The notes under the pieces were generated by a model that saw only the letters and a list, made by a program, of their open reading frames with translations, had not been told where the DNA came from and searched no databases. From positions 63,280,738-63,344,737 of the forward strand of contig NC_068355.1 in the NCBI RefSeq assembly GCF_020536995.1: a DNA stretch of 64,000 bases, written 5' to 3'. Positions 18,135 to 57,800 of the stretch are shown piece by piece. Positions within the stretch are counted from its first letter, which is position 1; each line of letters begins with the position of its first letter. The stretch comes from Dreissena polymorpha. Lineage: Eukaryota. Both the position numbers and the translations under genes were made by a program.

Positions 18135-18415
18135 TTAAGGGCGGCAATTATTTATATTTGTAAGGTAGCTCTTAGTGCGGCACTGCCGCCCCAACAAGTA
18201 GCTCATAGTGCGGCACTGCCACCCCAACAAGTAGCTCATAGTGCCGCTTTGCCACCCCAACAAGTAGCTCATAGTGCCGCACTGTTGCCCCAACAAGTAG
18301 CTCATAGTGCCGCACTGTTGCCCCAACAAGTAGCTCATAGTGCCGCACTGTTGCCCCAACAAGTAGCTCATAGTGCCTCACTGCCGCCCCAACAAGTAGC
18401 TCATAGTGCCGCACT
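18135..18415. repeat. 33-bp satellite, about 8.5 units. This is the proximal piece of the megaarray, separated from the rest by a transposon insertion.
   Basis: Unit GTAGCTCATAGTGCCGCACTGCCGCCCCAACAA repeated head-to-tail. Confidence 0.9.
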
Positions 18416-22600: not shown

Positions 22601-25600
22601 GCCTCACTGCCACCCCAACAAGAAGCTCATAGTGCCTCACTGCCACCCCAACAAGTAGCTCATAGTGCCTCACTGCCACCCCAACAAGTAGCTCATAGTG
22701 CTGCACTGCCACCCCAACAAGTAGCTCATAGTGCCTCACTGCCACCCCAACAAGTAGCTCATAGTGCCTCACTGCCGCCCCAACAAGTAGCTCATAGTGC
22801 CTCACTGCCGCCCCAACAAGTAGCTCATAGTGCCGCACTTCCACCCCAACAAGTAGCTCATAGTGCCTCACTGCCACCCCAACAAGTAGCTCATAGTGCC
22901 ACACTGCCACCCCAACAAGTAGCTCATAGTGCCTCACTGCCGCCCCTACAAGTAGCTCATAGTGCCTCACTGCCACCCCAACAAGTAGCTCATAGTGCCT
23001 CACTGCCGCCCCCAACAAGTAGCTCATAGTGCCTCACTGCCACCCCAACAAGTAGCTCATAGTGCCTCACTGCCGCCCCAACAAGTAGCTCATAGTGCCG
23101 CACTGTTGCCCGAACAAGTAGCTCATAGTGCCGCACTGCCACCCCAACAAGTAGCTCATTGTGCCTCACTGCCACCCCAACAAGTAGCTCATAGTGCCTC
23201 ACTGCCACCCCAACAAGTAGCTCATAGTGCCGCACTGCCACCCCAACAAGTAGCTCATAGTGCCGCACTGCCACCCCAACAAGTAGCTCATAGTGCCTCA
23301 CTGCTGCCCCAACAAGTAGCTCATAGTGCCGCACTGTCGCCCCAACAAGTAGCTCATAGTGCCGCACTGCCGCCCCAACAAGTAGCTCATAGTGCCTCAC
23401 TGCCGCCCCAACAAGTAGCTCATAGTGCCGCACTGCCGCCCCAACAAGTAGCTCATAGTGCCTCACTGCCGCCCCAACAAGTAGCCCATAGTGCCTCACT
23501 GTCGCCCAAACAAGTAGCTCATAGTGCCTCACTGCCGCCCCAACAAGTAGCTCATAGTGCCTCACTGCCGCCCCAACAAGTAGCTCATAGTGCCTCACTG
23601 CCGCCCCAACAAGTAGCTCATAGTGCCTCACTGCCGCCCAAACAAGTAGCTCATAGTGCTGCACTGCTGCCCCAACAAGTAGCTCATAGTGCCGCACTGC
23701 TGCCCCAACAAGTAGCTCATAGTGCCGCACTGTTGCCCCAACAAGTAGCTCATAGTGCCTCACTGCCACCCCAACAAGTAGCTCATAGTGCCGCACTGCC
23801 ACCCCAACAAGTAGCTCATAGTGCCTCACTGCCACCCCAACAAGTAGCTCATAGTGCCGCACTGTTGCCCCCAACAAGTAGCTCATAGTGCTGCACTGCC
23901 ACCCCAACAAGTAGCTCATAGTGCTGCACTGCCGCCCCAACAAGTAGCTCATAGTGCCTCACTGCCGCCCCAACAAGTAGCTCATAGTGCCTCACTGCCA
24001 CCCCAACAAGTAGCTCATAGTGCCTCACTGCCGCCCCAACAAGTAGCTCATAGTGCCTTACTGCCACCCCAACAAGTAGCTCATAGTGCCTCACTGCCGC
24101 CCCAACAAGTAGCTCATAGTGCCGCACTGTTCCCCCAACAAGTAGCTCATAGTGCCTCACTGCTGCCCCAACAAGTAGCTCATTGTGCCTCACTGCCACC
24201 CGAACAAGTAGCTCATAGTGCCGCACTGCCACCCCAACAAGTAGCTCATAGTGCCGCACTGCCACCCCAACAAGTAGCTCATAGTGCCTCACTGCTGCCC
24301 CAACAAGTAGCTCATAGTGCCGCACTGTCGCCCCAACAAGTAGCTCATAGTGCCGCACTGCCGCCCCAACAAGTAGCTCATAGTGCCTCACTGCCGCCCC
24401 AACAAGTAGCTCATAGTGCCGCACTGCCGCCCCAACAAGTAGCTCATAGTGCCTCACTGCCGCCCCAACAAGTAGCCCATAGTGCCTCACTGTCGCCCAA
24501 ACAAGTAGCTCATAGTGCCTCACTGCCGCCCCAACAAGTAGCTCATAGTGCCTCACTGCCGCCCCAACAAGTAGCTCATAGTGCCTCACTGCCGCCCCAA
24601 CAAGTAGCTCATAGTGCCTCACTGCCGCCCAAACAAGTAGCTCATAGTGCTGCACTGCTGCCCCAACAAGTAGCTCATAGTGCCGCACTGCTGCCCCAAC
24701 AAGTAGCTCATAGTGCCGCACTGTTGCCCCAACAAGTAGCTCATAGTGCCTCACTGCCACCCCAACAAGTAGCTCATAGTGCTGCACTGCCACCCCAACA
24801 AGTAGCTCATAGTGCCTCACTGCCGCCTCAACAAGTAGCTCATAGTGCCGCACTGCCGCCCCAACAAGTAGCTCATAGTGCCGCACTGCCACCCCAACAA
24901 GTAGCTCATAGTGCCTCACTGCCACCCCAACAAGTAGCTCATAGTGCCGCACTGCCGCCCCAACAAGTAGCTCATAGTGCCGCACTGTTGCCCCAACAAG
25001 TAGCTCATAGTGCTGCACTGCCACCCCAACAAGTAGCTCATAGTGCCTCACTGCCACCCCAACAAGTAGCTCATAGTGCCTCACTGCCACCCCAACAAGT
25101 AGCTCATAGTGCCGCACTGCCGTCCCAACAAGTAGCTCATAGTGCCTCACTGCCACCCCAACAAGTAGCTCATAGTGCCGCACTGCCGCCCCAACAAGTA
25201 GCTCATAGTGCCTCACTGCCGCCCCAACAAGTAGCTCATAGTGCCGCACTGCCGCCCCAACAAGTAGCTCATAGTGCCTCACTGCCATCCGAACAAGTAG
25301 CTCATAGTGCCTCACTGCCGCCCCAACAAGTAGCTCATAGTGCCTCACTGCCGCCCCAACAAGTAGCTCATAGTGCCTCACTGCCGCCCCAACAAGTAGC
25401 TCATAGTGCCTCACTGCCGCCCCAACAAGTAGCTCATAGTGCCTCACTGCCGCCCCAACAAGTAGCTCATAGTGCCTCACTGCCGCCCCAACAAGTAGCT
25501 CATAGTGCCTCACTGCCGCCCAACAAGTAGCTCATAGTGCCTCACTGCCGCCCAAACAAGTAGCTCATAGTGCCTGCACTGCTGCCCCAACAAGTAGCTC

Positions 25601-28600
25601 ATAGTGCCGCACTGCTGCCCCAACAAGTAGCTCATAGTGCCGCACTGTTGCCCCCAACAAGTAGCTCATAGTGCCTCACTGCCGCCCCCAACAAGTAGCT
25701 CATAGTGCCGCACTGCCGCCCCAACAAGTAGCTCATAGTGCCGCACTGCCCACCCCCAACAAGTAGCTCATAGTGCCGCACTTGCCACCCCAACAAGTAG
25801 CTCATAGTGCCTCACTGCCACCCCCAACAAGTAGCTCATAGTGCCGCACTTGCCGCCCCAACAAGTAGCTCATAGTGCCTCACTGCCACCCCAACAAGTA
25901 GCTCATAGTGCCGCACTGCCGCCCCAACAAGTAGCTCATAGTGCCTCACTGCCGCCCCAACAAGTAGCTCATAGTGCCGCACTGCCGCCCCAACAAGTAG
26001 CTCATAGTGCCTCACTGCCACCCGAACAAGTAGCTCATAGTGCCTCACTGCCGCCCCAACAAGTAGCTCATAGTGCCTCACTGCCGCCCCAACAAGTAGC
26101 TCATAGTGCCTCACTGCCGCCCCAACAAGTAGCTCATAGTGCCTCACTGCCGCCCCAACAAGTAGCTCATAGTGCCTCACTGCCGCCCCAACAAGTAGCT
26201 CATAGTGCCTCACTGCCGCCCCAACAAGTAGCTCATAGTGCCTCACTGCCGCCCGAACAAGTAGCTCATAGTGCCTCACTGCTGCCCCAACAAGTAGCTC
26301 ATAGTGCCTCACTGCCGCCCGAACAAGTAGCTCATAGTGCCTCACTGCGGCCCCAACAAGTAGCTCATAGTGCCTCACTGCCGCCCCAACAAGTAGCTCA
26401 TAGTGCCTCACTGCCGCCCGAACAAGTAGCTCATAGTGCCTCACTGCTGCCCCAACAAGTAGCTCATAGTGCCTCACTGCCGCCCCAACAAGTAGCTCAT
26501 AGTGCCTCACTGCGGCCCGAGCAAGTAGCTCATAGTGCCTCACTGCTGCCCCAACAAGTAGCTCATAGTGCCTCACTGCCGCCCAAACAAGTAGCTCATA
26601 GTGCCTCACTGCCGCCCCAACAAGTAGCTCATAGTGCCTCACTGCCGCCCCGAACAAGTAGCTCATAGTGCCTCACTGCTGCCCCAACAAGTAGCTCATA
26701 GTGCCTCACTGCCGCCCCAACAAGTAGCTCATAGTGCCGCACTGCCGCCCCAACAAGTAGCTCATAGTGCCTCACTGCCACCCGAACAAGTAGCTCATAG
26801 TGCCTCACTGCCGCCCCAACAAGTAGCTCATAGTGCCTCACTGCCGCCCCAACAAGTAGCTCATAGTGCCTCACTGCCGCCCCAACAAGTAGCTCATAGT
26901 GCCTCACTGCCGCCCCAACAAGTAGCTCATAGTGCCTCACTGTTGCCCCAACAAGTAGCTCATAGTGCCGCACTGCTGCCCCAACAAGTAGCTCTTAGTG
27001 CCGCACTGCCACCCCAACAAGTAGCTCATAGTGCCGCACTGTTGCCCCCAACAAGTAGCTCATAGTGCCTCACTGCCGCCCCAACAAGTAGCTCATAGTG
27101 CCTCACTGCCGCCCCAACAAGTAGCTCATAGTGCCTCACTGCTGCCCCAACAAGAAGCTCATAGTGCCTCACTGCCACCCAACAAGTAGCTCATAGTGCT
27201 GCACTGCTGTCCCAACAAGTAGCTCATAGTGCTGCACTGCTGCCCCAACAAGTAGCTCATAGTGCCGCACTGCCGCCCCAACAAGTAGCTCATAGTGCCG
27301 CACTGTTGCCCCCAACAAGTAGCTCATAGTGCCTCACTGCCGCCCCAACAAGTAGCTCATAGTGCCTCACTGCCACCCGAACAAGTAGCTCATAATGCCT
27401 CACTGCCGCCCCAACAAGTAGCTCATAGTGCCTCACTGCCACCCCAACAAGTAGCTCATAGTGCCTCACTGCCGCCCCAACAAGTAGCTCATAGTGCCTC
27501 ACTGCCGCCCCAACAAGTAGCTCATAGTGCCTCACTGCCACCCCAACAAGTAGCTCATAGTGCTGCACTGTTGCCCCCAACAAGTAGCTCATAGTGCCTC
27601 ACTGCCACCCCAACAAGTAGCTCATAGTGCCTCACTGCCGCCCCCAACAAGTAGCTCATAGTGCCTCACTGCCGCCCCAACAAGTAGCTCATAGTGCCTC
27701 ACTGCCACCCAAACAAGTAGCTCATAGTGCTGCACTGTTGCCCCCAACAAGTAGCTCATAGTGCCGCACTGCCACCCCAACAAGTAGCTCATAGTGCCTC
27801 ACTGCCACCCGAACAAGTAGCTCATAGTGCCTCACTGCCACCCCAACAAGTAGCTCATAGTGCCTCACTGCCGCCCCAACAAGTAGCTCATAGTGCCTCA
27901 CTGCCACCCCAACAAGTAGCTCATAGTGCCTCACTGCCACCCCAACAAGTAGCTCATAGTGCCTCACTGCCGCCCAAACAAGTAGCTCATAGTGCCACAC
28001 TGCCACCCCAACAAGTAGCTCATAGTGCCTCACTGCCGCCCCAACAAGTAGCTCATAGTGCCTCACTGCCGCCCCAACAAGTAGCTCATAGTGCCTCACT
28101 GCCGCCCCAACAAGTAGCTCATAGTGCCTCCTGCCCCCAACAAGTAGCTCATAGTGCCTCTCTGCCACCCCAACAAGTAGCTCATAGTGCCGCACTGCCG
28201 CCCCAACAAGTAGCTCATAGTGCCTCAATGCCACCCGAACAAGTAGCTCATAGTGCCTCACTGCCGCCCTAACAAGTAGCTCATAGTGCCTCACTGCCGC
28301 CCGAACAAGTAGCTCATAGTGCCTCACTGCTGCCCCAACAAGTAGCTCATAGTGCCTCACTGCCGCCCGAACAAGTAGCTCATAGTGCCTCACTGCGGCC
28401 CCAACAAGTAGCTCATAGTGCCTCACTGCCGCCCCAACAAGTAGCTCATAGTGCCTCACTGCCGCCCGAACAAGAAGCTCATAGTGCCTCACTGCTGCCC
28501 CAACAAGTAGCTCATAGTGCCTCACTGCCGCCCCAATAAGTAGCTCATAGTGCCTCACTGCGGCCCGAACAAGTAGCTCATAGTGCCGCACTGTTGCCCC

Positions 28601-29335
28601 AACAAGTAGCTCATAGTGCCTCACTGCCACCCCCAACAAGTAGCTCATAGTGCCGCACTGCCGCCCCAACAAGTAGCTCATAGTGCCTCACTGCCACCCC
28701 AACAAGTAGCTCATAGTGCCGCACTGCCGCCCCAACAAGTAGCTCATAGTACCTCACTGCCACCCCAACAAGTAGCTCATAGTGCCTCACTGCCACCCCA
28801 ACAAGTAGCTCATAGTGCCTCACTGCCACCCCAACAAGTAGCTCATAGTGCCTCACTGCCACCCCAACAAGTAGCTCATAGTGCCTCACTGCCGCCCCAA
28901 CAAGTAGCTAATAGTGCCTCACTGCCGCCCCAACAAGTAGCTCATAGTGCCTCACTGCCACCCAAACAAGTAGCTCATAGTGCTGCACTGTTGCCCCCAA
29001 CAAGTAGCTCATAGTGCCGCACTGCCACCCCAACAAGTAGCTCATAGTGCCTCACTGCCACCCCAACAAGTAGCTCATAGTGCCTCACTGCCACCCCAAC
29101 AAGTAGCTCATAGTGCCTCACTGCCACCCCAACAAGTAGCTCATAGTGCCTCACTGCCACCCCAACAAGTAGCTCATAGTGCCTCACTGCCGCCCCAACA
29201 AGTAGCTCATAGTGCCTCACTGCCGCCCCAACAAGTAGCTCATAGTGCCTCACTGCCACCCGAACAAGTAGCTCATAGTGCCGCACTGCCGCCCCAACAA
29301 GTAGCCCATAGTGCCGCACTGTTGCCCCAACAATT
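19640..29335. repeat. 33-bp satellite megaarray, about 294 units over ~9.7 kb, with S/A and P/L-type variant units, sporadic 34-bp (+C) units, and internal higher-order segmental duplications.
   Basis: Perfect 33-nt periodicity with consensus GTAGCTCATAGTGCCTCACTGCC(A/G)CCCCAACAA. Duplicated blocks include ~23040-23870 versus ~24190-24780, 20220-20470 versus 24050-24300, and 26250-26560 versus 28290-28600. A more degenerate zone lies at 25500-25860. Confidence 0.95.
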
Positions 29336-31164: not shown

Positions 31165-32035
31165 TTTTTATGTCCCCCACTATAGTAGTGGAAGACATAT
31201 TGTTTTTGCCCTGTCTGTTGGTCTGTTTGTTGGTTGGTCTGTTGGTTGGTTGGTTGGTTTGCGCCAACTTTAACATTTGCAATAACTTTTGCAATATTGA
31301 AGATAGCAACTTGATATTAAGCATGCAAATGTATCTCATGGAGCTGCACATTTTGAGTGGTGAAAGGTCAAGGTCAAGGTCATCCTTCAAGGTCAGAGGT
31401 CAAATATATGGGTCAAAATGGCTCATTTAATGTACACTTTTGCAGTATTTCAATATTCAAGATAGCAACTTGATATTTATCATGCATGTGTATCTCATGG
31501 AGCTGCACATTTTTAGTGGTGAAAGGTCAAGGTCATCCTTCAAGGTCAGATGTAAAATATATGTGGCCAAAATCGCTCATTCTATCAGACCTTTTGCAAT
31601 ATTGAAGATAGCAACTTGATATTTGGCATGCATGTGTATCTCATGGAGCTGCACATTTTGAGTGGTGAAAGGTCAAGGTCATCCTTCAAGGTCAGAGGTC
31701 AAATATATGTGGCCCAAATCGCTTATTTTATGAATACTTTTGCAATATTGAAGATAGCATCTTGATATTTGGCATGCATGTGTATCTCATGGAGCTGCAC
31801 ATTTTGAGTGGTGAAAGGTCAAGGTCATCCTTCAATGTCAAATATATGGGTCAAAATTGCTCATGTAATGTCACTTCTGCAATATTGAAGCTAGCAATTT
31901 TATATTTGAAATGCATGTGTATCTCATGAAGCTGCACATTTTGAGTGGTGAAGGGTCAAGGTCAAGGTCATCCTTCAAGGTCAAACGTCATATAGGGGAC
32001 ATTGTGTTTCACAAACGCATCTTGTTGGCTAAGTT
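31165..32035 (+). mobile_element. Hairpin-(GTCT)n-satellite element with five ~150-bp internal repeats, inside MVP intron 1.
   Basis: Head ttttatgtcccccactatagtagtggaagacatattgtttttgccctgtctgttggtctgtttg. Core repeats ttgaagatagcaacttgatat...ggtcagaggtcaaatatatg are at ~31290, 31440, 31590, 31745 and 31870. Tail ggggacattgtgtttcacaaacgcatcttgtt. Confidence 0.6.
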
Positions 32036-32284: not shown

Positions 32285-35200
32285 TAGCTCATGTTTTTTT
32301 TTTTTTTAAATGAGCTATTGTCATCATCTTGGCGTCGGCGTTGGTGTTGGCGTCCGGTTAAGTTTTGCGTTAAGGTCCACTTTTCTCATAAAGTATCAAT
32401 GCTATTGCATTCAAACTTGGTACACTTACTTACTATCATGAGGGGACTAGGCAGGCAAAGTTAGATAACTCTGGCTTGCATTTTGACAGAATTATGTGCC
32501 CTTTTTATACTTAGACAATTGAAAATTTTGGTTAAGTTTTGTGTTTAGGTCCATTTTATTCCTTAAGTATCAAAGCTATTGCTTTCATACTTGCAACACT
32601 TACTTACTATCATTAGGGGACTGTGCAGGCAAATTTATGTAACTATGACTAGCATTTTGACAGAATTATGTGCCCTTTTTATACTTAGAAAATTGAAAAT
32701 TTTGTTAAGTTTTGTGTTTAGGTCCACTTTTTTTCTATAGTATCAAAGCTATTGCTTTCATACTTGCAACACTTACTAACTATCGTAAGGGGACTGTGCA
32801 GGCAAAGGTCATTCTTCAAGGTAAAAAAAAATATATAATTTTCAAAGCAGCGTTCTCACAAAGCTGCACATTTTGAGTGGTGGAAGTTCAATATCAAGGT
32901 CATCCTTCAAGGTCAAGGTCATCCTTCAAGGTTAAAGGTAAAAAAATAAAAATTCTAAAGCGACGTTCTCATGAAGCTGCACATTTTGAGTGGTGGAAGT
33001 TCAAGGTCAAGGTCATCCTTCAAGGTCAAGGTCATCCTTCAAGGTCAAAGGTCCAATTTTTTTTATTTCAAAGCGGCGTTCTCATAAAGCTGCACATTTT
33101 GAGTGGTGGGAGTTGATGGTCAAGGTCATCCTTCAAGGTAAAAGGTAAAATAAACAATTTTTTTTTTTTCAAAGCGGCGCAATAGGGGGCATTGTGTTTC
33201 TGACGAACACATCTCTTGTTTTTTTTAAAACATTGTTAAAAAAAATAAATATTTATTTTTATTATTTTATTTTTGAAATAGTGTCCAACCATCCCACCCA
33301 AGAATCCCCCCCCCCCAATTTTTTTTTATGCCCCCTTTCGAAGAAGAAGGGGTATATTGCTTTGCTCATGTAGGTCGGTCTGTCGGTCGGTCGGTCCGTC
33401 CACCAGGTGGTTTCCGGATGATAACTCGAGAATGCTTGGGCCTAGGATCATGAAACTTCATAGGTACATTGATCATGACTCGCAGATGACCTCTATTGAT
33501 TTTGAGGTCACTAGGTCAAGGTCATGGTGACCCGTAATAGTAAAATGGTTTTTGGATGATAACTCAAGAATGCATACATGGCCAACAGGGAGAACTCTGA
33601 ACAATATAACTGAAGCAACTGGTCTGTAATCCTAAATCTATAATTATCAGTCCAATGAAACATAATCCTTTGAGTAAAATAAAGTGGATCAGTAAAAATA
33701 TTATCAGAATATGAGATTTTTTGTATATTTTGTATATTAAATATTGTGTTAATGTTAAATTTTGTTGATTAATATAAATATAAGCAGGACAGGGGAGGTA
33801 ATACACTATTATATCTTTCTTATATACAGGGGAAACAAATGCAATAAGTTTAAATTTCATGTTTAATGAATAGAGGATATTTATCATGTCAGTGTGAGAT
33901 CATTTGTTATTTTTTAGGATCACATTTTATTATTACTTTGACAAAACAACACTTACCTGAATACCACAATGGATTCCATCCAACAATACCCCACGCCCCT
34001 ACCAGAATCCCTTCCCTCCCCCCAACCTCAACTCCCCCCCCCCAATTTTTTTTGTAAACATCATCAAATAAATTACCACAACCCCACATTTTACCCCCCT
34101 CTCACCACCTTCCCCCCTACCCACCCCCCCACACCCCCTTCCCCCCACCCCCCCCAATTTTTTTTAAACATCTAATAAATAAACCCCCCCCCCCACATTA
34201 TACCCCCCTCTCACTCCCCCCGACCCCCCCTACCCCCCAATTTTTTTTAAACATTTAATAAATTACCACTCCCCACATTATTCCCCTCTCACTCCCCCCC
34301 TACCCCCCTACCCCCCACCCCCCCCCCATTTTTTTTTAAAACATTTTCTAAATAACCCCACCCTACATTATTACCCCCTCTCACCCCCCACCCCCTACCC
34401 CCCCTAATTTTTTTTTTAAGCATCTTATAAATTACTACACCCCACATTATACCCCCCTCTCACCCCCCCACCCCCCACCCCCCCCCAATTTTTTTTTTAA
34501 ACATCGGATAAATTACCCCACCCTACATTATTACCCCCTCTCACCCCCCTACCCCCCCCCCAACCCACCCCCCCCAATTTTTTTTTTAAACATCTTATAA
34601 ATTACCCCACCCCACATTACACCCCCCTCTCACCCCAACCCCCCTTACCCCCCCAACCCCACCCCCCCCAAAAAAATTCTTTTTTAACATCTAATAAATT
34701 ACCACACCCCACATTATACCCCCCTCTCACCCCCCTACTCCTACCCCTACCCCCCCCCCCCCAGCCCCCCCAGCCCCTTCCCCCATTTTTTTTTAACAAT
34801 CTAATAAACTACCACACCCAACATTATACCCCCCTCTCACTCCCCCCCTACCCACCTACCCCCCCCCCCACGGCCCCCCCCCCCCCCATTTTTTTTTTTT
34901 AAACAACTTTTAAATTACCACACCCCACATTATACCCCCCTCTCACTCCCCCCTTGATCATGACTGGCAGATGACCCCTATTGATTTTCAGGTCACTAGG
35001 TCAAAGGTCAAGGTCACAGTGACTCGAAATAGAACAATGGTTTCCGGATGATAACTTACAAAAGGTCAAGGTCACAGTGACAAAAAACGTATTCACACAA
35101 CGGCTGCCACTGCAACTGACAGCCCATATGGGGGTTTGCATGTTTTACAAACAGCCCTTGTTTTATTTTTTTCTGCATTTTTGGAAGATACTGTAATAAA

Positions 35201-37750: not shown

Positions 37751-37874
37751 GCTGTCACACCCCTAAAAGTGGTTGCCCCCAACACAGCCTTGAGACTTCG
37801 CTCTATTCTTGACTTTGAAGATGAGACGGGCGAGAAGAGAACAGCTGGGGATGAATGGCTTTTTGAGGGACCAG
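37751..37874 (+). CDS. MVP: MVP exon 3: [41 protein letters not shown].
   Basis: Acceptor tatttcag|GCT. Conserved ...[10 protein letters not shown]. Donor CAG|GTAGGG. Confidence 0.9.
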
Positions 37875-38581
37875 GTAGGGGCAACACACACTTTCATCAA
37901 GGCACTTTCAGGGTAAAATATGCATTAACTGAAACGGCGAACAAGCCTGAATCAGTTTGCAACTTATAGACAACAAATGACATTGTCGCAAGTCTGAATG
38001 CAATACTGATTTAAAAATGCTTTTTTAGATGTCAGGCTTTTCATAATCATGAAGACGGGCTTTATTAAGATTTATTTTGGACAGAATAAGTTTTATGATT
38101 CCGTGTTTCTGCACATTACAAATGATTGGACACATCATTCTCAAACAATAAAAATGCTGATTAATACAATTTGAAATTAATTGTAACCAATAACCAATAA
38201 CTAAGAAAAACGTTTTGTGAATAATCTTTATTCTTACTGTTTACATAAAAAAGTCAATATTACTACAACTAACAAGATTTTTACTGCACAAGAACCACAA
38301 CTAATGATTCCATGATTGTGAGTTAATTGACCTTTCTTAACATTCTTTTACATATTTGTCTAGGGCTTCACTCCTACTTACATATTAAAATATTTTCCTC
38401 TAAAAATACTAACAAATTCTTAAAACCAAACAAGTATTTTTTGTTTTTAATAGTTGTTTTCATGTTAATTTTTTTAAGTTGACAATTTTTTTTCATTTTT
38501 ATTAAATGTTTTTAAGTTCAATATTTAATGATTCAGTCCTTGAAGTAATAAAACATGTAACACAATTTCTTTCCAAACAGC

Positions 38582-39569: not shown

Positions 39570-40080
39570 ACCCTATATTAAACCAGGTTTTCCGAAGGAA
39601 AACACTGGTTATTAGATTGGCGAATGTCGGCTGGCGGGCGGGCGGAACAAGCTTGTCCGGGCCATAACTTTGTCGTTCATTGTAAGATTTAAAAATCATT
39701 TAGCACATTTGTCAACCATCATTGGACTGTGTGTCACGCAAAAGAATTAGGCCAATATCTCCAAGGTCAAGGTCATACTTTTGAGTTCAAAGGTCAAAAA
39801 CGGCCATAAATGAGCTTAGCAGGGCCATAACTATGTCATTCATTGTGAGGTTTTAAAATCCTTTAGCACATTTGTTCACCATCATTGGACGGTGTGTCGC
39901 ACTAAAGAATTATCTCAATATCTCCAAGGTCAAGGTCGCCACATTTAAAAATAGATTTATTTTGAAACAAAGGGGGTTAATTATAAACAGTTCAGTTTGA
40001 GTTGTCTCCCTTTATCAGACTTTTTTTTTAAATTGAAAACCTGGTTTTGTGACAATTTTGTCCCTTGTTTTGTATAAGAT
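39570..40080 (+). mobile_element. Second copy of the CCAGGTTTTC-TIR MITE, with two internal ~165-bp units, immediately 5' of MVP exon 5.
   Basis: Head aaaccaggttttccgaaggaaaacactggttattagattggcgaatgtcggctggcgggcgggcgg and tail gaaaacctggttttgtgacaattttgtcccttgtt. The copy is collinear with 14588-15255. Confidence 0.65.
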
Positions 40081-40152
40081 ACTTGATAGATCCAGTGTTC
40101 TATACCTATACTCCTGTAACAATGTTTTTATCATTTTGTCCTGTTACTTCAG

Positions 40153-40263
40153 GTGGTTGGGGTATCCAATATCACCTCACTTAGCAACCGTCAGTATTGC
40201 GTGATTCTGGACCCTGTTGATGAAAAGGGCCGCCCACAAATGGGACGCAAGAAGCTGGTCAAG
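40153..40263 (+). CDS. MVP: MVP exon 5: [37 protein letters not shown].
   Basis: Acceptor tacttcag|GTG, donor AAG|GTGAAT. Conserved NYCVILDPV. Confidence 0.9.
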
Positions 40264-40467
40264 GTGAATATGGTCCTTTCATAGGTTGTTATAGATGATT
40301 TTGATGATTATGATGATGATGCTAATGATAATAACAAAGATGTATGTGTTTATAATTATTATAATGATTATAATAATGATTACAAAATTGATAATAAAGA
40401 CAAGCATGACTTTTATGACAACAATTATGATATCATGAAGTACACAGATGATGGTATATGGTTTCAG

Positions 40468-40587
40468 GGAGAGCTGTCATTTTTCCTGATGCCAGGTGAG
40501 CAATTGGAGCGAGGCATACAGAACGTCTACATCCTGGGGGAAGACGAGGGACTCATCCTGCGGGCAAACGAGACATTCACTGATGGG
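40468..40587 (+). CDS. MVP: MVP exon 6: [40 protein letters not shown].
   Basis: Acceptor tttcag|GGA. Conserved [23 protein letters not shown]. Donor GGG|GTAGGG. Confidence 0.9.
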
Positions 40588-42450
40588 GTAGGGCACATTG
40601 ATATGTACAGTGGTGTTAGTTAATCAGACATTCATAGATGGGGTAGGGCATATTGAGTTGTACAGTGGTAACAGTTAATGAGACGTTCATAGATTGGGAA
40701 GGCCACATTGAGATGTACAGTGGCACCAGTTAATGAGACATTCATAGACAGGGTAGGGCACATTGAGATTTACAGTGGTACTGGTTAATTAGACATTCAT
40801 AGATTGGGTAGGGCACATTCAGATGTACAGTGGTATTTTTATGCCTCCGAAGGAGGGCATATAGTGATCGCATTGTCCTTCTGTCTTTCCAGCATACTTA
40901 TGCGTTTAGGTTTCGAAAAATGCACATAACTTCTATATCGCTTCAGATGTAACCTTAATATTTGGTATGCATGTGTATATGGACCAGGCCTTTCCATATG
41001 CACACACATTTTGACCCCTTTGACTTTTACCTTGAACTTAGGGTCCGCGTTAAGGTTTCAAAATCTGCGTTTAGGTTTCGAAAAAAGAGTTTTTATGGGG
41101 CATATGTCTTCCGATGGAGACAGCTCTTGTTGTGAATAAGACATGCACAAACGAGGTAAGGTATACTGAGATGTTCAGTCGAACTGCTTAATGAGACATT
41201 CATAGATTGGGTAGGGCACACTGAGATGAACAGTGCTGTTGGTTAATGAGACATTCATAGACATTTATAGAAGGATTAGGGCGTGAAAAGATACTCAGAT
41301 GTACAGTGGAGTTTTTTAATGAGACATTCATTGACACATAGGGAACATTTATATATATAGTGGTATAAGTTATTGAGACATTCACTGACGGGTAGGGTAT
41401 GTTGAGATTAACAGTGGTGTTGGTTAATAAGACATACACAGGCATCGTAGAGTGCATAAAGATGTACAGTGGAATTAGTTGTTGAGACATTCATAGACAG
41501 GGTAGAGCGTGAAGATATAAGGAGATTTACAGTGGTGTTTAATGAGTTGTTTATAGACTGGGTAAGGGTACATTGAGATGTACTGTGGTATTAATTATTG
41601 AGACAATTATAGACAGGGTAGGGCACACTGCGATGTAAAGTGGTGTTAGGCAATGAGACATTAATATACAGGGTCGGGCATATTGAGATGTTCAGTGCTT
41701 TTAGTTAATGAGACATTCAAAGATGGGGTCAGGCACATTGAGATGTACAGAGGTATTTGGTATTAAGACAATCATTGACAAGGTAGGGCACACTGAGATG
41801 TACAGTGATGCATGTATAAGCTATTGAGACAATCATAGACAGGGTAGGGCGTGAAGATATACTGAGATGTACAGTGGTATTAGTTGTGAGACATTCATAG
41901 ATGGGGTAGGGCACATTGAGATGTACTGTGGTATTAATTATTGAGGCAATTATAGACAGAGTAGGGCAAACAGATGAACAGTGGTGTTAGTTAATGAGAA
42001 ATGCACAGACAGGGTAGGGTGCATTTAGATGTACAGTGGAATTAGTTATATAGACAGTCATAGACGGGATAGGGCGTGACGATATACTGAAATGAACAGT
42101 GGTTTTAGTTAATGAGACATTCATAGATGGGGTAGGGCATATTAAAATATACAGTGGTTTTAGTTAATTATACATTAATTGGTATTAGTAAATGAGACTT
42201 TCATAGACAGGGTTGGGCACACTGATCAGTGATGTTGGTTAATTAAACATTAATAGATGGGGTAGGGGGCATTGGATGTACAATGGTACTGGTTAATGAG
42301 AAATTTATATATGGGTTAAAAAACATTGAGATGTAGAGTGGTATTAGTTATGAGACATTCATAGACAGGGTAGGGTATGAAGAGATACTGAGATATACAG
42401 TGATGTTGGCATATGAGACATTCATAGAGGGGGAAGGGCACATTAAGTAG
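40588..42450 (+). repeat. Intronic minisatellite in MVP intron 6: a ~59-bp unit in about 26 copies that starts at the exon 6 donor.
   Basis: Unit aatgagacattcatagatggggtagggcacattgagatgtacagtggtattagtta. The first unit overlaps the exon end (acgagacattcactgatggg|gtagggcacattgatatgtacagtgg). The array is interrupted by an element insertion at 40843-41135. Confidence 0.85.
40843..41135 (+). mobile_element. Hairpin-headed element inserted into the intron 6 minisatellite.
   Basis: Head tttttatgcctccgaaggagggcatatagtgatcgcattgtccttctgtc, tail tttttatggggcatatgtcttccgatggagacagctcttgtt. The minisatellite resumes on both sides. Confidence 0.55.
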
Positions 42451-42508
42451 TGGTAGTTAACATTTGATAATGCATTATATGTATATATTTGTGTGTGTCC
42501 CTTTTCAG

Positions 42509-42658
42509 GATGTGACACGTCGCCCTGGTGATCGCTGGATGATTCGTGGCCCCAAGGAGTATGTGCCGCCAGTTGAGGTGGAGGTCGTGATGAAGAGACA
42601 GGCGATCCCATTGGATGAGAATGAGGGCGTGTACGTGAGGGACATCAAGACTGGAAGG
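42509..42658 (+). CDS. MVP: MVP exon 7: [50 protein letters not shown].
   Basis: Acceptor cttttcag|GAT. Conserved GDHWLIRGPLEYVP...[21 protein letters not shown]. Donor AGG|GTAAGA. Confidence 0.92.
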
Positions 42659-42789
42659 GTAAGAAAACTGGACATGGAGATACATTGTCCTTTTCCTGTT
42701 CATTTTACTTTTATGTTTTGTAAACCAGTTAATTATTAAATAATTTACTGTAAATGCATATCTGCAATACTTTCAACGAGTTATAGCAT

Positions 42790-43720
42790 CCTTTGGGATT
42801 CTCTCAAGAATCAGTGCGAAACCATTCTTTATGAATAGTCCTAATGGTTTTTCAAAGGTCTAAATGTTATATCAATAGACTCCATGATTTTTTATTTATC
42901 TTTATAGTTTATCAGTAGTCCCAATTGTTTATCAATATTCCCAATTGCAATTGTTTATCAATAGTGCAAATGTTTAATCAACAGTCCCCATGGTTGATCA
43001 TTAATACCAATTGTTTAAAAACAGTTTAACTTGTTTATCAACAGTTCAACATTGCAATTGTTTATCAATAGTCCAAATGGTTTTAATCAATAGTCCCAAT
43101 GGTTTATTGATTGTCCCAACTGTTGATTTATTGTTCAAATAACAATTGTTTATCAAAAGTCCCCATTTAATATCAATAGTGCTAATGGTTTATCATTAAT
43201 CAATAGTGCCAATGTTATCTTAATAATCTCCATGGTTAATCATTTATCAAAAGTCCCAATGGGTAATCAATAGTCCCGTTGGTTTATATATAGTCACAAT
43301 GGTTTATCTATAGTTCCTTTGATTATGAACAGTTCCAAGGTTTTTCTTTTATCAATAGTCCAATTGTTAGTCAGCAGTCACCGTAGTGTAGTAAAAGTAA
43401 TATTGGTTTTTCAAAATTGGATTGGTTCAATAAATAGTCCAAATGGTTAATCAATTGTCAAAATGATTAACTAATAGCCCCGATTGTGTATTAATAGTCC
43501 CAATGGTTTATCTCTAGTCTCAATGTCTTATCAATAGTCCCCACATTTTATTGAATTTCCCATAGTTTATCTATAGTCCCATTGAATATCAATAGTCATT
43601 ATGGTTTATCCATGTCCCCATCATTAATCATTTGTGTCAATTGTGTATCAAAAGTGTTGATAGCAATTGTTTACCAATAGGCCACAAGGTTTTATCAAAA
43701 GTTCCCATGGTTAATAAAAA
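42790..43720. repeat. Intronic minisatellite in MVP intron 7: a ~20-40-bp unit (tttatcaatagtcccaatgg) in many degenerate copies.
   Basis: Direct reading of the recurring caatagtcc(c/a)aatggtt(t/a)atc motif. Confidence 0.75.
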
Positions 43721-43758
43721 AAAGGTTTAATCACTAGTCTCTATATCTGTGACACTAG

Positions 43759-44000
43759 GTTCGTGCAGTGACTGGTGAGACATACATGATCAATCAAGAT
43801 GAAGAACTCTGGGCTAAGGAGCTGCCCCCTGCAGTGGAGGCCCTTCTAGCTGCGGCAAAGGATCCTATAGCTGATCGTGGTGACCGACGCACAGGGCCCG
43901 CAGAAGGTTCCAAGCCCCGTGACAAGACCCGAGTGATATCCTTCCGGGTGCCTCACAATGCTGCTGTGCAGATCTATGACTACAAGGAGAAGAAAGCAAG
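43759..44000 (+). CDS. MVP: MVP exon 8: [24 protein letters not shown]...[23 protein letters not shown](R).
   Basis: Acceptor cactag|GTT. Conserved VRAV.G.TYML.QDE.LWEKELP and [18 protein letters not shown]. Donor AAG|GTGTGT. Confidence 0.92.
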
Positions 44001-48934: not shown

Positions 48935-51290
48935 TCATCTATTTTTTGAAAAAAAAAGAGCTATTGTCATCACCTTGGCGTCGGTGTCGGTGTTAAGTTT
49001 TGCGTTTAGGTATACTTTTCTCATAAAGTATCAATGCTATTGCATTTAAACTTGGTACACTTACTTACTATCATGAGGGGACTGGCCAGGCAAAGTTAGA
49101 TAACTCTGGCTTGCATTTTGACAGAATTATGTGCCCTTTTTATACTTAGAAAATTGAAAATTTTGGTTAAGTTTTGTGTTTAGTTCCATTTTATTCCTTA
49201 AGTATCAAAGCTATTGCTTTCATACTTGCAACACTTACTTACTATCATAAGGGGACTGTGCAGGCAAAGTTATGTAACTCTGACTGGCATTTTGACAGAA
49301 TTATGTGCCCTTTTTATACTTAGAAAATTGAAATTTGGTTAAGTTTTGTGTTTAGGTCCACTTTTTTCCTCAAGTATCAAAGCTATTGCTTTCATACTTG
49401 CAACACTTACTAACTATCGTAAGGGGACTGTGCAGGCAAAGTTATGTAACTCTGACTGGTATTTTTACATAATTATGGGCCCTTTATACTTGAAAATTTG
49501 GTTAATCTTTGTGTTTTGGTCCACTTTACCCCTAAAGTATCATAGATATTGCTTTCATACTTGGAACACTCGCAAACTAACATAAGGGGACAGTAAAGGA
49601 CAAGTTGCATAACTCTGGTTGTCATTTTAACGGAATTATGGCCCTTTTTTGACTTAGTAATTTTGAATATATGGTTACATTTTGTGTTACGATACACTTT
49701 ACTTCTAAAGTATCAAGGCTGTTGCTTTTAAATACTACAAATACTTTCATACTATTATGAGGGTACTGTACCTGGCAAGTTGAATTTTACCTTGACCTTT
49801 GAATGACCTTGACTCTCAAGGTCAAATTATTAAAGTTTGCTAAAATTGCCATAACTTCTTTATTTATGATTAGATTCGATTGATACTTTGACAAAACAAC
49901 TCTTACCTGACATACCACAATAGACTCCACCCAAACCATCCCCCACACGCCCCCCCCCCCAAACTCCCGCCCCCCTCGAATCCCCCCTCAACCCCCCTCC
50001 ATTATTATTTTTTTAAATTAAAGATCATCTAATTAATGACCACCACACCCTCACACTATACCCCCCACCCCAAAAAAATAATGTTAATGCCCCCGGTAGG
50101 GTGGCATATAGCAGTTGAACTGTCCGTCAGTATGTCAGTCAGTCTGTCCTTCCGTCCGAAAAAAGCTTTAACATTGGCCATAACTTTTTCACTTTTGAAG
50201 ATAGCAACTTGATATTTGGCATGCATGTGTATCTCATGGAGCTGCGCATTTTGAGTGGTGAAAGGTTAAGGTCATCCTTCAAGGTCAAATGTCAAATTTA
50301 TGGTGTCTGTCCAACTGAAAACTAACATTGGCCTTAACTTTTTCAATATTGAAGATAGCAACTTGATATTTGACATGCATGTGTATCTCATGAAGCTGCA
50401 CATTTTGAGTGCTGGAAGGTCAAGGTCATCCTTCAAGGTAAAAAAATTAATAAATAAAAGTGGCATTCGTTCTCATGAAGCTGCACTTTTTGAGTGGTGG
50501 CAGTTCAAGGTCAAGGTCATCCTTCAAGGTCAAAGGTAAAAAAAATAATGATTCAAAACAGCGTTCTCATGAAGCTGCACATTTTGAGTGGTGGAAGTTC
50601 AAGGTCAAGGTCATCCTTCAAGGTCAAGGTCATCCTTCAAGGTCAAAGGTCAAACAAAATATAAAAAATTCAAAGTGGTGTTATCATGAAGCTGCACATT
50701 TTGAGTGGTGGAAGGTCAAGGTCATCCTTCAAGGTCAAAGGTATTTTTATTTATTTTTAATTCAAAGCGGCGTTCTCATGAAGCTGCACATTTTGAGTGG
50801 TGGAAGTTCAAGGTCAAGGTCATTCTTCAAGGTCAAGGTCATCCTTCAAGGTCGAAGGTAAAATTTTTTTAAAATTTAAAGCGGCGTTATCATGAAGCTG
50901 CACATTTTGAGTGGTGGAAGTTCAAGGTCAAGGTCATCCATCAAGGTCAAGGTCATCCTCCATGGTTAAAGGTAAAAAAAAATAAAATCAAAGCAGAGCA
51001 ATAGGGGGCATTGTGTTTCTGACAAACACATCTCTTGTTTTTTTCAAACATGGTTAAAAACAAAATATTTATTTTTATTATTTTATTTTTGAAATACTGT
51101 CCAACCATCCCACCCAAGAACCCCCCCCCCCCAATAAATATTTTTGTTTGCATTTTTGGAAGATAATGTAATAAATGACCACACCCACACACTATACACC
51201 CCTCTCCACTCCACCCCTCCCTCCTTTGTGATTGAAATTGAGATAGGTCCCTACACCTTTAAAAAGAAAAATAGATGAGCGGTCTGCACC
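48935..51290 (+). mobile_element. Composite repeat block 3' of MVP, paralogous to 32285-35300. Its inverted termini are AGCTCATCTATTTTT / AAAAATAGATGAGC.
   Basis: Head tttagctcatctattttttgaaaaaaaaagagctattgtcatcaccttggcgtcggtgtcggtg. The ~175-bp repeats are at 48990-49800. The ctgcacattttgagtggtggaagttcaaggtcaagg repeats are at 50180-50990. The tail ends aaaaatagatgagcggtctg at 51270-51290. Confidence 0.5.
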
Positions 51291-54447: not shown

Positions 54448-55484
54448 GTATTCGGATATTTAATTGTTTAGCCTGACGGCTGATTCCATTGTTTCATATT
54501 TAAACTTTGTTCATTTATTTCATTATCTATATTATCAGATGAATCGTTTTCGATTAAGTCATTAAAATTATTTAACATCTCGTTAATGTGTGCTTGATTT
54601 GCATTTTTAGCTCGACTATTATATATGAAATATAAAAAGTGGAGCTATCCTACTCACCCTGGCGTCGCCGTCTGTGTCTGCGTTAGCGTTAGCGTGCAAA
54701 TGTTAAAGTTTTCGTACTACCCTAAATATTTTCTTTGTCCCTTGACATATTGCTTTCTTATTTTGAATGCTTGTTTACCAACATGACCCCAACCTATAAA
54801 CAAGAGCAGACAACTCTATCAAGCATTTTGTCATAATTATGGCTTCTTTTCCACTTAGAATATGCAGCCAATGTTAAAGTTTTCGTACTACCCCATTTAT
54901 TTTCATTGTCCCTTGACATATTGCTTTCATATTTTGCATACTTGTTTACCAACATCACCCCAACCTATAAACAAGAGCAGACAGCTCTATCAATCATTTT
55001 GTCATAATTATTGCCCCTTTTATACTTAGAATATGCATATTATTGATAAATCTATGTTAAAGTTTGCGTAATACCCCAAATATTTCCTATATCCTTTGAC
55101 ATATTGCTTTTATATTTTGCATACTTGTTTACCAACATGACCCCAACCTATAAACAAGAGCAGACCAGTGTATCAAGCATTTTTACATAATTATGGTCCC
55201 TTTTACACTTAGATAATTGAAAATTTTGCTTAAACTGCCATAACTTCTTTATTTATGATCACATTTTATTATTACTTTGACTAACAAAACTTACCTGAAT
55301 ACCACAATGGATTCCACCCAAAAAATACCCCACGCCCCTACCCAGAATCCCTCCCCCCCCAACCCCCCCCCCCGAAATTATTTTTTTTAAACATCATCTA
55401 ATAAATTACCCCACCCCACATTATACCCACCCCCCCTCTCACCCCCCCCCTACCCCCATACCCCCCCCCCCCAATTTTGTTAGC

Positions 55485-56745: not shown

Positions 56746-57800
56746 CCTTCGTAGAAGGGGGGTATATTGTTTTGCTCATGTCGGTCTGTCCGTCCACCAG
56801 ATGGTTTCCGGATGATAACTCAAGAGCGCTTATGCCAAGGATCATGAAACTTCATAGGTACATTGATCATGACTCGCAGATGACCCCGATTGATTTTCAG
56901 GTCACTAGGTCAAAGGTCAAGGTCGCGATGACCAGAAATAGTAAAATGGTTTCTGGATGATAACTCAAGAACGCTTATGCCTAGGATCATGAAACTTCAT
57001 AGATACATTGATCATGACTCGCAGATGACCCCTATTGATTTTCAGGTCACTAGGTCAAAGGTCAAGGTCACGGTGACCCAAAAGCAGTAAAATGGTTTCC
57101 AGATGATAACTCAAGAACGCTTAGGCCTAGGATCATAAAACTTCTTAGGTAGATTGATCATGACTCGCAGATGATCCCTATTGATTTTCAGGTCACTAGT
57201 TCGAAGGTCAAGGTCACGGTGATCCGAAACAGTAAAATGGTTTCCAGATGATAACTCAAGAACGATTATGCCTAGGATCATGAAACTTCATAGGTACATT
57301 GATCATGACTCGAAGATGACCCCTATCGAGTTTCAGGTCACTAAGTAAAAGGTCAAGATCACGGTGACCTGAAATAGTAAAATGGTTTCTAGATGATTAC
57401 TCAAGAATGCTTGTGCCTAGGATCAAGAAACTTCATAGGTACAATGATCATGACTCGCAGATGACCCCTATAGATTTTCAGGTCACTAGGTCAAAGGTCA
57501 AGGTCACGATGACATGAAATAGTAAAATGGTTTCTGGATGATAACTCAAGAACGCTTTTGCCTAGGTTTATGAAACTTCATAGGTATATTGATCATGACT
57601 CTCAGATGACCCCTATTGATTGTCAGGTCACTAGGTCAAAGGTCAAGGTCACAGTGCCAAAAAACGAATTCACACAATGGCTGTCAAGGTCACGGTGACT
57701 CAACTTAGAAAAAGGTTTGCAGATGATATCTCAAGAATGCATACGCCTAGGATCATGAAACTTTATAGGTTCATTGATCATGACTCGCAGATGAAATAAT
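56745..57800 (+). mobile_element. Hairpin-headed element with six ~168-bp units (ggtttccggatgataactcaagaacgcttatgcctaggatcatgaaacttcataggtacattgatcatgactcgcagatgacccctattgattttcaggtcactaggtcaaaggtcaaggtcacggtgac).
   Basis: Head ccccttcgtagaaggggggtatattgttttgctcatgtcggtctgtccgtccaccag, followed by 6 tandem units. A related 1.5-unit copy lies at 33330-33590 and a partial one at 34955-35060. Confidence 0.75.

What the first reader, a model, noticed from the sequence alone, without database searches (positions are those of the whole stretch)
40468..42450. Minisatellite in MVP intron 6 was seeded from the exon 6 donor, putting ~26 decoy 5' splice sites right after the real one
The last ~20 nt of exon 6 (acgagacattcactgatggg) plus the first ~38 nt of intron 6 (gtagggcacattgatatgtacagtgg...) form the first unit of a ~59-bp tandem array spanning ~1.9 kb. 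Most units keep a GATGGG|GTAGGG or GACAGG|GTAGGG motif identical or near-identical to the authentic donor. Tandem amplification of an exon/intron boundary is uncommon. It creates a dense field of cryptic donors whose use would frameshift or extend exon 6. It could equally act as a U1-snRNP sponge or a splicing-regulatory element.
Basis: seen in the sequence. Interest (0 to 1): 0.7.

Follow-up and report, generated by a model that had tools for sequence, protein, structure and literature searches.

The report
Splice-site-copying minisatellite in MVP intron
A 55-bp piece of DNA spanning the end of one exon and the start of the next intron of the major vault protein gene has been copied head-to-tail 28 times, filling the intron with look-alike splice sites; this is a real but already known kind of repeat ("mirage" minisatellite) that probably does nothing to the protein.

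Summary
The last 18 nt of MVP coding exon 6 plus the first 37 nt of intron 6 form unit 1 (40570-40624) of a tandem array that runs to 42450. The period is 55-56 bp, not 59. There are 28 units. 21 downstream units keep GT in register and 16 keep GTA[AG]GG, not ~26. About 303 bp of the span is a foreign insertion.

The copying went from exon to repeat. Exon 6 ends E-x-F-x-D-G (several end GATGGG|GT) in 11 other genomic orthologues. The sister species has a plain 202-bp intron. The unit occurs nowhere else.

Every decoy lies downstream of an in-frame TAA (40621-40623), so decoy use would truncate the protein. Decoy GT columns are no better conserved than other columns, so nothing supports a U1-sponge or regulatory role.

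This is a known class: human F7 IVS7, IFI6, CBS, LMNB2 and PDGF, and amphioxus "mirages". In those the upstream donor is used. The genome is very repeat-prone (30% of the window is tandem repeat).

One surprise: a distant species (L001) independently amplified the same boundary (63 bp x 6.4) from the same codon.

Verdict: new member of a known kind, low-to-moderate interest.

The parts
40468..40587 (+). MVP coding exon 6 ([40 protein letters not shown]), phase 0 at both ends
   Evidence: Translation and tblastn against MVP. Orthologue hits carry the Vault Pfam domains.
40585..40593 (+). Authentic 5' splice site GGG|GTAGGG. It is weak: 5.7 bits on a generic PWM, while 8 of the gene's other 10 donors score 8.5-11.5 (the remaining two score 3.3 and 4.2)
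   Evidence: The intron position is shared with L001, L003-L007, L085, L087 and L091-L093.
40570..40624 (+). Unit 1 of the array: last 18 nt of exon 6 plus first 37 nt of intron 6
   Evidence: 49/55 identical to the consensus of intronic units; profile of u2-u28 hits 40570-40587.
40621..40623 (+). In-frame TAA reached by read-through of the authentic donor. It makes every downstream decoy a premature-stop isoform
   Evidence: [12 protein letters not shown]; stop present in every extension.
40625..40835 (+). Proximal block, units 2-5. These are the copies most like the exon boundary (units 1-5 differ pairwise by about 15%). Unit 5 is truncated by the insertion
40836..41137 (+). Foreign insertion of about 303 bp that interrupts the array. 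It shares an ATATTTGG[C/T]ATGCATGTGTAT...CACATTTTG segment with dispersed elements of 146-175-bp tandem units elsewhere in the window
   Evidence: (303-nt gap between units).
41138..42450 (+). Distal block, units 6-28. These are older and more diverged. It includes the 60-63-bp subtype (u8, u12, u18, u22, u27) and a block duplication (u12-14 pair best with u18-20)
41153..41161 (+). Strongest decoy donor, GAG|GTAAGG (10.5 bits, 7/9 match to the U1 consensus)
41780..41788 (+). Second-strongest decoy donor, AAG|GTAGGG (8.7 bits)
42451..42476 (+). Degenerate tail of the array (GTGGTAGTTAACATTTGATAATG resembles the unit end and the start of a next unit)
   Evidence: Read directly from the sequence against the consensus. 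This is an inference.
42477..42508 (+). Non-repeat 3' end of intron 6: pyrimidine-rich tract and AG acceptor
42509..42658 (+). MVP coding exon 7 ([10 protein letters not shown]...KTGR)

Best explanation
This is a 'mirage'-type minisatellite, meaning a tandem array whose first monomer spans an exon-intron boundary.

A 55-bp segment made of the last 18 nt of MVP exon 6 and the first 37 nt of intron 6 was tandemly duplicated in the lineage of this species. That happened after the split from its nearest sampled relative. The copies then amplified downstream by unequal exchange or replication slippage, sometimes in multi-unit blocks. The intron probably grew from a couple of hundred bp to 1.9 kb. 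The array then aged through point mutation, CpG decay, indels and one transposable-element insertion.

Only the first copy is part of the gene. The other 27 are intronic passengers, and 21 still carry a GT in register.

Inferred, not shown: the spliceosome uses the most upstream donor, as in human F7 IVS7 and the amphioxus mirages. Any use of a decoy would include the in-frame TAA at 40621-40623 and be lost to nonsense-mediated decay. The array is therefore a neutral or mildly costly by-product of a genome with a very high rate of minisatellite formation, not a regulatory device.
For: Shown:
- Array anatomy and register.
- The unit is private to this intron. There is no other copy in the 64 kb on either strand and no hit in the loci from other species scanned with the unit profile.
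- The exon end is ancestral and conserved in all orthologues.
- The sister species L004 (86% aa identity; NJ tree) has a 202-bp repeat-free intron.
- Four-fold degenerate sites between window and L004 are saturated (49/70 differ), while units differ by K of about 0.31. The array therefore post-dates that split.
- There is a CpG-decay signature, and exon-like character states survive in u10.
- Block duplication and a TE insertion are present.
- Decoy GT columns are conserved at 0.85/0.93 against a mean of 0.82. That matches many non-splice columns.
- 30.5% of the window is tandem repeat of period >=10, and 33% of L001, which is the only other species with a boundary array. Loci without one show 0-7.6%.
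- Rfam finds no RNA family in the region.

From the literature:
- F7 IVS7 pseudo-sites are functional but silent, and the most upstream site is always chosen unless a pseudo-site is a perfect consensus (PMC1557585).
- Amphioxus mirages do not disturb splicing (PMC3087553, PMC3902484).
Against: - No transcript data for this species were available, so exclusive use of the 40587 donor is assumed, not shown.
- The authentic donor is weak. Two decoys (41155 GAG|GTAAGG and 41782 AAG|GTAGGG) are clearly stronger.
- In IFI6 and CBS the two proximal pseudo-sites are used (PMC1557585), so some decoy splicing is plausible.
- The 5'ss scores come from a PWM recalled from vertebrate data, not from a model trained on this taxon.
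- The GT columns are slightly above average in conservation. Weak selection cannot be excluded with 27 units.
- The same boundary is independently amplified in a second species from the same codon. A purely neutral account has to call that coincidence.
Confidence: 0.8

Rival explanations
1. The array is a functional splicing element. The repeated pseudo-donors and G-runs would recruit U1 snRNP (or hnRNP H/F-like factors) downstream of a weak authentic donor. They would reinforce exon 6 definition, act as a U1 sponge, or tune MVP output through decoy splicing coupled to nonsense-mediated decay.
For: - The authentic donor is weak (5.7 bits), below 8 of the gene's other 10 donors (8.5-11.5 bits).
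- 21 of 27 copies keep GT, and the GGGTAGGG core is slightly better conserved than average (0.885 against 0.82).
- Every decoy leads to a premature stop, which is what an AS-NMD switch needs.
- A second species independently amplified the same boundary.
Against: - The core's conservation is matched by non-splice blocks: columns 2-8 average about 0.91 and columns 40-43 about 0.92.
- The sister species and nine other orthologues manage without any array. Several have the same GATGGG|GT exon end.
- Both array-bearing genomes are exceptionally repeat-rich, which gives a mutational explanation.
- In F7 no autonomous regulatory element was found in the repeat (PMC1557585).
Confidence: 0.1
2. The arrays in the window and in L001 are one ancient array inherited from a common ancestor. 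It would have been kept homogenised with the exon boundary by concerted evolution and lost in L004 and the other species.
For: - Both arrays begin at the homologous nucleotide, the Glu codon of E-T-F.
- The intronic parts of the two units show marginal similarity (z=1.96, p=0.04). Both contain ACATT(G)AGATG.
Against: - Synonymous sites between the species are saturated, yet L001 units are 91% alike and window units differ by K of about 0.31.
- Unit lengths differ (55 vs 63 bp), and the intronic sequence is essentially unrelated.
- The sister of the window species lacks any array.
- This account would need several independent losses.
Confidence: 0.05
3. Reverse direction. A pre-existing intronic satellite or a transposon-borne repeat sat next to exon 6, and the exon acquired its last six codons (ETFTDG) by shifting to a donor inside the first repeat unit.
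For: This loop of MVP varies in length between taxa. Human has a longer insert here.
Against: - E-x-F-x-D-G/D is encoded at the exon 6 end in all 11 other genomic orthologues and in cDNA contigs that have no repeat.
- The intron position is identical in all of them.
- The unit is found nowhere else in the window or in the other loci scanned.
Confidence: 0.02
4. Assembly artefact: the array or its copy number is a product of mis-assembly of a repetitive region.
For: Tandem arrays are error-prone in assemblies. An amphioxus mirage was reported as mis-assembled in a draft genome (PMC3087553).
Against: - Units are well diverged (mean pairwise identity 0.66 counting gaps) with unit-specific indels, subtypes and a unique insertion. 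The array is therefore easy to assemble unambiguously.
- The exon, donor and acceptor are intact and in frame.
Confidence: 0.03

Closest known systems
Human F7 (coagulation factor VII) intron 7 37-bp VNTR (Borensztajn et al. 2006, PLoS Genet 2:e138; PMC1557585)
   Same: - The first monomer spans the exon-intron boundary.
- The authentic, moderately weak donor is followed by a series of in-register pseudo-donors.
- All of them compete for a single 3' acceptor.
   Different: - F7: 37-bp unit, only 4 nt of exon, 5-9 near-identical copies, polymorphic in humans, and donor choice dissected experimentally.
- Here: 55-bp unit, 18 nt of exon, 28 old and diverged copies (some decoys stronger and some dead), one TE insertion, and no expression data.
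Human IFI6 (6-16) intron 2 minisatellite, plus the CBS IVS13, LMNB2 and PDGF intron 4 minisatellites (as summarised in PMC1557585)
   Same: - These are boundary-spanning minisatellites that reiterate the donor.
- IFI6 has 25 pseudo-sites, a number similar to this array.
   Different: [quoted passage not shown]
- Here any decoy use meets an in-frame stop, so alternative proteins are not expected.
Amphioxus 'mirages': Adh3, troponin C, globins BflGb6/BflGb9, PGBD5 (PMC3087553, PMC3902484)
   Same: - They are invertebrate minisatellite-like tandem duplications of exon/intron boundaries.
- Units are tens to about 160 bp.
- Copy number differs between haplotypes, as seen here between L001 and L002.
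- They are reported not to disturb splicing.
- They occur in a repeat-prone genome.
   Different: - The phylum differs. The window's nearest named MVP relative is the annelid Paralvinella palmiformis.
- This array is much longer and older than the described mirages (mostly 2-6 units, 81-100% identical).
- The same boundary is hit independently in a second species.

Membership tests
Boundary-spanning ('mirage' / F7-IVS7-type) minisatellite | Head-to-tail tandem array of a 10-200-bp unit | tested here: met
   TRF gives period 55. 28 units are resolved and aligned.
Boundary-spanning ('mirage' / F7-IVS7-type) minisatellite | The first monomer contains the authentic exon-intron junction (exon tail plus intron head) | tested here: met
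   Unit 1 is 40570-40624, i.e. 18 nt exon plus 37 nt intron. The profile of intronic units hits the exon tail in register. The junction is verified by frame and by orthologues.
Boundary-spanning ('mirage' / F7-IVS7-type) minisatellite | The splice-site consensus is reiterated in the downstream monomers | tested here: met
   21/27 downstream units keep GT in register. 16 keep GTA[AG]GG. 13 score at or above the authentic site.
Boundary-spanning ('mirage' / F7-IVS7-type) minisatellite | The exon part is the source: the boundary pre-dates the array | tested here: met
   The exon end is conserved in 11 array-less or differently arrayed orthologues. The sister species has a plain 202-bp intron. Unit divergence (K about 0.31) is far below the saturated synonymous divergence between species.
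Boundary-spanning ('mirage' / F7-IVS7-type) minisatellite | The authentic (most upstream) site is used and pseudo-sites are silent or minor | not testable with these tools
   No transcript of this species is in the protein or contig collections; the best hit is 76% identical. Needs RNA-seq.
Boundary-spanning ('mirage' / F7-IVS7-type) minisatellite | Copy-number instability or polymorphism | tested here: inconclusive
   Only one haplotype of the window is available. In the second species, two contigs of one assembly (L001, L002) differ in copy number and internal deletions.
Major vault protein (MVP) gene | Encodes a protein with Vault repeats and the MVP shoulder, collinear with known MVP | tested here: met
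   tblastn of human MVP (sequence recalled from memory) aligns collinearly across 12 coding exons. Database homologues carry PF01505, PF17794-6 and PF11978 and are named major vault protein.
Dispersed satellite or transposon-borne tandem repeat | The same unit is present at other genomic sites | tested here: not met
   No other copy on either strand of the 64-kb window and none in the loci from other species scanned with the unit profile. The rest of this genome could not be searched.
Structured or annotated non-coding RNA in the intron | Match to an Rfam family | tested here: not met
   cmscan of 40000-43800 on both strands at E<=1 gave 0 hits.

The most novel reading that the evidence does not exclude
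The MVP exon 6/intron 6 boundary may be a recurrent target rather than a random victim. Two lineages whose synonymous sites are saturated each amplified it independently, and both arrays start at the same homologous nucleotide (the Glu codon of E-T-F).

This could reflect one of two things:
- a sequence-specific duplication hotspot, or
- selection, in repeat-prone genomes, for extra U1-binding pseudo-donors downstream of a donor that has to follow a conserved ...D-G codon pair and is therefore intrinsically weak. The array would then be a compensatory splicing enhancer or an AS-NMD rheostat for vault abundance.
Probability: 0.1. Interest if true: 0.55.

Novelty: new member of a known kind. Interest (0 to 1): 0.3.

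Why it matters
This locus is a natural competition experiment for 5' splice-site choice. One weak authentic donor is followed by 21 GT-bearing copies in near-identical local context. Their strengths range from dead to clearly stronger than the authentic site, and their distances run from 55 nt to 1.8 kb. RNA-seq of this one locus would test, outside vertebrates, the 'most upstream site wins' rule derived from human F7.

It also documents three broader points:
- Mirage-type boundary duplications, so far described in amphioxus and humans, occur in a lophotrochozoan-like genome.
- They can persist long enough to diverge by about 30%.
- They can enlarge an intron roughly ten-fold.

It does not change what is known about MVP or about splicing mechanisms.

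Tried and rejected
1. Dispersed-repeat origin. Fuzzy and profile searches for the unit elsewhere in the window and in the fetched loci found nothing.

2. Exonisation of a pre-existing repeat. Rejected by the conserved exon end in orthologues.

3. Homology of the window and L001 arrays. Alignment of the intronic parts against shuffles was only marginal (z=1.96), and the divergence arithmetic argues against it.

4. Selection on decoy GTs. Per-column conservation shows nothing special.

5. Hidden structured RNA. Rfam was negative.

6. The L001 57-bp array in intron 5 as an acceptor-side mirage. It is an unrelated AT-rich repeat that ends 36 nt before the acceptor.

7. Intron 7's 20-bp repeat as a mirage derived from the exon 7/8 junction. 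A profile of 33 intronic units gave no hit at the junction.

8. Species identification.
- There was no exact protein match. The nearest named relative is Paralvinella palmiformis, in a cluster whose representative is 75% identical.
- The long ORFs in the window are only LINE RT fragments and satellite read-throughs.

9. The metagenome scan for more orthologous introns returned mostly intronless cDNA contigs. Only L085-L087 were genomic.

10. MaxEntScan could not be run offline. A generic PWM with frequencies recalled from memory was used instead.

Full report
**What is there**

The window carries a major vault protein (MVP) gene on the + strand, with 12 coding exons between about 30871 and 48727. 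A human MVP sequence recalled from memory aligns collinearly across them. Database homologues carry the Vault and MVP-shoulder Pfam domains.

The sixth coding exon is 40468-40587 (GELSFF...NETFTDG). It ends in phase 0 at GGG|GTAGGG. Exon 7 starts at 42509 ([10 protein letters not shown]...).

TRF finds a period-55 tandem repeat from 40570. A profile search resolves 28 units between 40570 and 42450.

Unit 1 (40570-40624) consists of the last 18 nt of exon 6 (GAGACATTCACTGATGGG) and the first 37 nt of intron 6. It matches the consensus of the 27 purely intronic units at 49 of 55 positions.

A profile built only from units 2-28 picks out 40570-40587 (model positions 1-18). That is the best hit among all MVP exons (E=0.013) and the best in the whole window once the array is masked. 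The hit is in exact register with the rest of unit 1.

- The modal unit is 55-56 bp, not ~59. A 60-63-bp subtype carries a GTGAAGATATACT-like insert (u8, u12, u18, u22, u27).
- About 303 bp (40836-41137) inside the span is a foreign insertion. It is related to dispersed tandem-unit elements elsewhere in the window.
- Of the 27 downstream units, 21 keep GT in register and 16 keep GTA[AG]GG. On a generic 5'ss PWM, 13 score at least as high as the authentic donor.
- The PWM frequencies were recalled from memory because MaxEnt was not available.
- With a degenerate tail reaching about 42476, the array fills almost the entire 1921-nt intron.

**Direction of copying**

- The exon end is ancestral. 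Orthologous MVP sequences encode E-x-F-x-D-G/D at exactly this point, for example ATESFKDG|NLERKPGDRW and ANETFRDD|DTERRPGDRW.
- Twelve distinct genomic orthologues had a resolvable intron 6: the window, L001/L002, L003, L004 (=L009/L010), L005, L006, L007, L085/86, L087, L091, L092 and L093. All have the intron at the same position. L003, L091 and L093 end the exon in GATGGG|GT, like the window.
- The sister species L004 is 86% identical in protein (NJ tree). Its intron 6 is a plain 202 bp with no tandem repeat.
- Four-fold degenerate sites between the window and L004 are saturated (49/70 differ). The repeat units differ by only K of about 0.31. The array therefore arose within the window's own lineage.
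- Inside the array, u10 keeps the exon-like CACTGA and the CpG form GACGGG. The two dominant subtypes, GATGGG and GACAGG, are the two deamination products of that form. The founder was thus probably ...ACT GAC GGG|GTAGGG, with a later synonymous GAC>GAT change in the exon. That last step is inference.
- The unit occurs nowhere else in the 64 kb or in the other loci scanned. It is a local duplication, not a mobile satellite.

**History of the array**

Units 1-5 differ pairwise by about 15%. The distal units are more diverged: mean pairwise identity is 0.66 counting gaps. Units 12-14 pair best with units 18-20, which indicates a multi-unit block duplication. Together with the TE insertion and the CpG decay, this describes an old, no longer homogenised minisatellite. 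It enlarged the intron about ten-fold relative to the sister species.

**Consequences for splicing (sequence level only)**

- The authentic donor is weak: 5.7 bits and 5/9 matches to the U1 consensus. Eight of the gene's other ten donors score 8.5-11.5 bits; the remaining two (exons 9 and 11) score 3.3 and 4.2.
- Two decoys are clearly stronger: 41155 GAG|GTAAGG at 10.5 bits and 41782 AAG|GTAGGG at 8.7 bits.
- Read-through of the authentic donor meets an in-frame TAA at 40621-40623 ([12 protein letters not shown]). Every decoy would therefore give a premature stop, not an extended or merely frameshifted protein.
- Decoy G and T columns are conserved in 0.85 and 0.93 of units, against an array mean of 0.82. 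Columns 2-8 and 40-43 do as well or better. There is no sign that the decoys are being either preserved or purged.
- Rfam finds no RNA family in the region.

**Comparison with what is known**

This is an established class.

- Borensztajn et al. [quoted passage not shown]
  - Its 5-9 pseudo-sites are functional but silent.
  - The most upstream site is always selected.
  - Pseudo-sites compete only when mutated to a perfect consensus.
- The same paper lists IFI6/6-16 (25 pseudo-sites, with the two proximal ones used), CBS IVS13, LMNB2 and PDGF intron 4.
- In amphioxus such structures are named "mirages" (Adh3, troponin C, globins, PGBD5).
  - They vary between haplotypes.
  - They do not disturb splicing (PMC3087553, PMC3902484).

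The MVP array meets every structural criterion of this class. Only the behavioural criteria (which donor is used, and copy-number polymorphism) could not be tested.

By analogy, the upstream donor at 40587 is most likely the one used. No decoy is a perfect consensus. This step is inferred, not shown.

**Why here**

30.5% of the window is tandem repeat of period >=10, including a 9.7-kb 33-bp satellite. With about 21 arrays per 64 kb and a 55-bp seed, a given splice junction has roughly a 2% chance of being straddled. A boundary array somewhere in a 12-exon gene is therefore not surprising in this genome. This is my own rough estimate.

**The one unexpected result**

L001 is an MVP orthologue on a 4.6-Mb contig from a distant species (78% aa identity, synonymous sites saturated). 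It has its own array at the same boundary.

- The array is 63 bp x 6.4 copies at 91% match.
- The unit is the last 24 nt of exon 6 plus 39 nt of intron, with TCA|GTGAGT reiterated.
- It starts at the homologous nucleotide, the Glu codon of E-T-F.
- A second contig of the same assembly (L002) has fewer, rearranged copies, which fits minisatellite instability.
- The intronic parts of the two units are at best marginally similar (z=1.96), so the events are independent.
- L001 is also 33% tandem repeat, while loci without a boundary array show 0-7.6%. That favours a mutational explanation.
- The shared breakpoint remains an unexplained coincidence. It was noticed post hoc, and I estimate its probability at about 1e-3 to 1e-2.

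**Verdict**

The seeding interpretation is supported. The functional speculation is unsupported, and the 'uncommon' claim is overstated.

This is a new, unusually long and old member of a known kind of repeat. It probably has no effect on the protein. Its value would be as a natural test of 5' splice-site choice if transcript data become available.

Noticed in passing
L001:9509-9905 (and L002:9608-9887): A distant species' MVP gene has independently amplified the same exon 6/intron 6 boundary. The array is 63 bp x 6.4 copies at 91% match, each copy with a TCA|GTGAGT donor. It starts at the homologous Glu codon of E-T-F. A second contig of the same assembly has a shorter, rearranged array.
   Followed up: yes
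window 42659-43758: An 1100-bp intron lies between ...KTGR and VRAVTGET... at an AGG^GT site. It is absent from all 11 other genomic orthologues sampled, including the sister species, so it is a candidate lineage-specific intron gain. It is almost entirely a degenerate 20-bp tandem repeat (TTTATCAATAGTCCCAATGG). A profile test found no derivation from the flanking exons, and there is no other copy in the window.
   Followed up: partly
window 19649-29333 (also 18165-18418): A 9.7-kb satellite of a 33-bp unit (about 293 copies, 93% match) lies just upstream of MVP. Because 33 = 11 codons, it reads as long open frames on both strands. These are almost certainly not genes.
   Followed up: no
window 40836-41137: An insertion of about 303 bp splits the minisatellite between units 5 and 6. 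It shares an ATATTTGG[C/T]ATGCATGTGTAT...CACATTTTG segment with dispersed elements built of 146-175-bp tandem units, so it is likely a transposable-element fragment.
   Followed up: partly
window 31286-31964, 32356-33139, 48992-49728, 50468-50987, 54699-55213, 56801-57663, 58103-58686: Several dispersed arrays have 145-210-bp units. Some clearly belong to the same families: 31286 and 58103 match, as do 32356 and 48992. They lie in MVP intron 1 and downstream of the gene. Overall 30.5% of the window is tandem repeat of period >=10.
   Followed up: no
window 37872-37880: The exon 3 donor is CAG|GTAGGG. This is the same GTAGGG intron start as the exon 6 donor and its copies, so GTAGGG is a normal functional donor type in this gene.
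   Followed up: no
window 7062-7661 (- strand) and 59507-60082 (+ strand): There are ORF fragments resembling retrotransposon proteins. One is a reverse-transcriptase-like stretch and the other a basic ORF1-like protein. Neither is part of the finding.
   Followed up: no
L001:8963-9371: A 57-bp x 7 AT-rich tandem array in intron 5 ends 36 nt before the exon 6 acceptor. It is unrelated to the 63-bp boundary array.
   Followed up: yes
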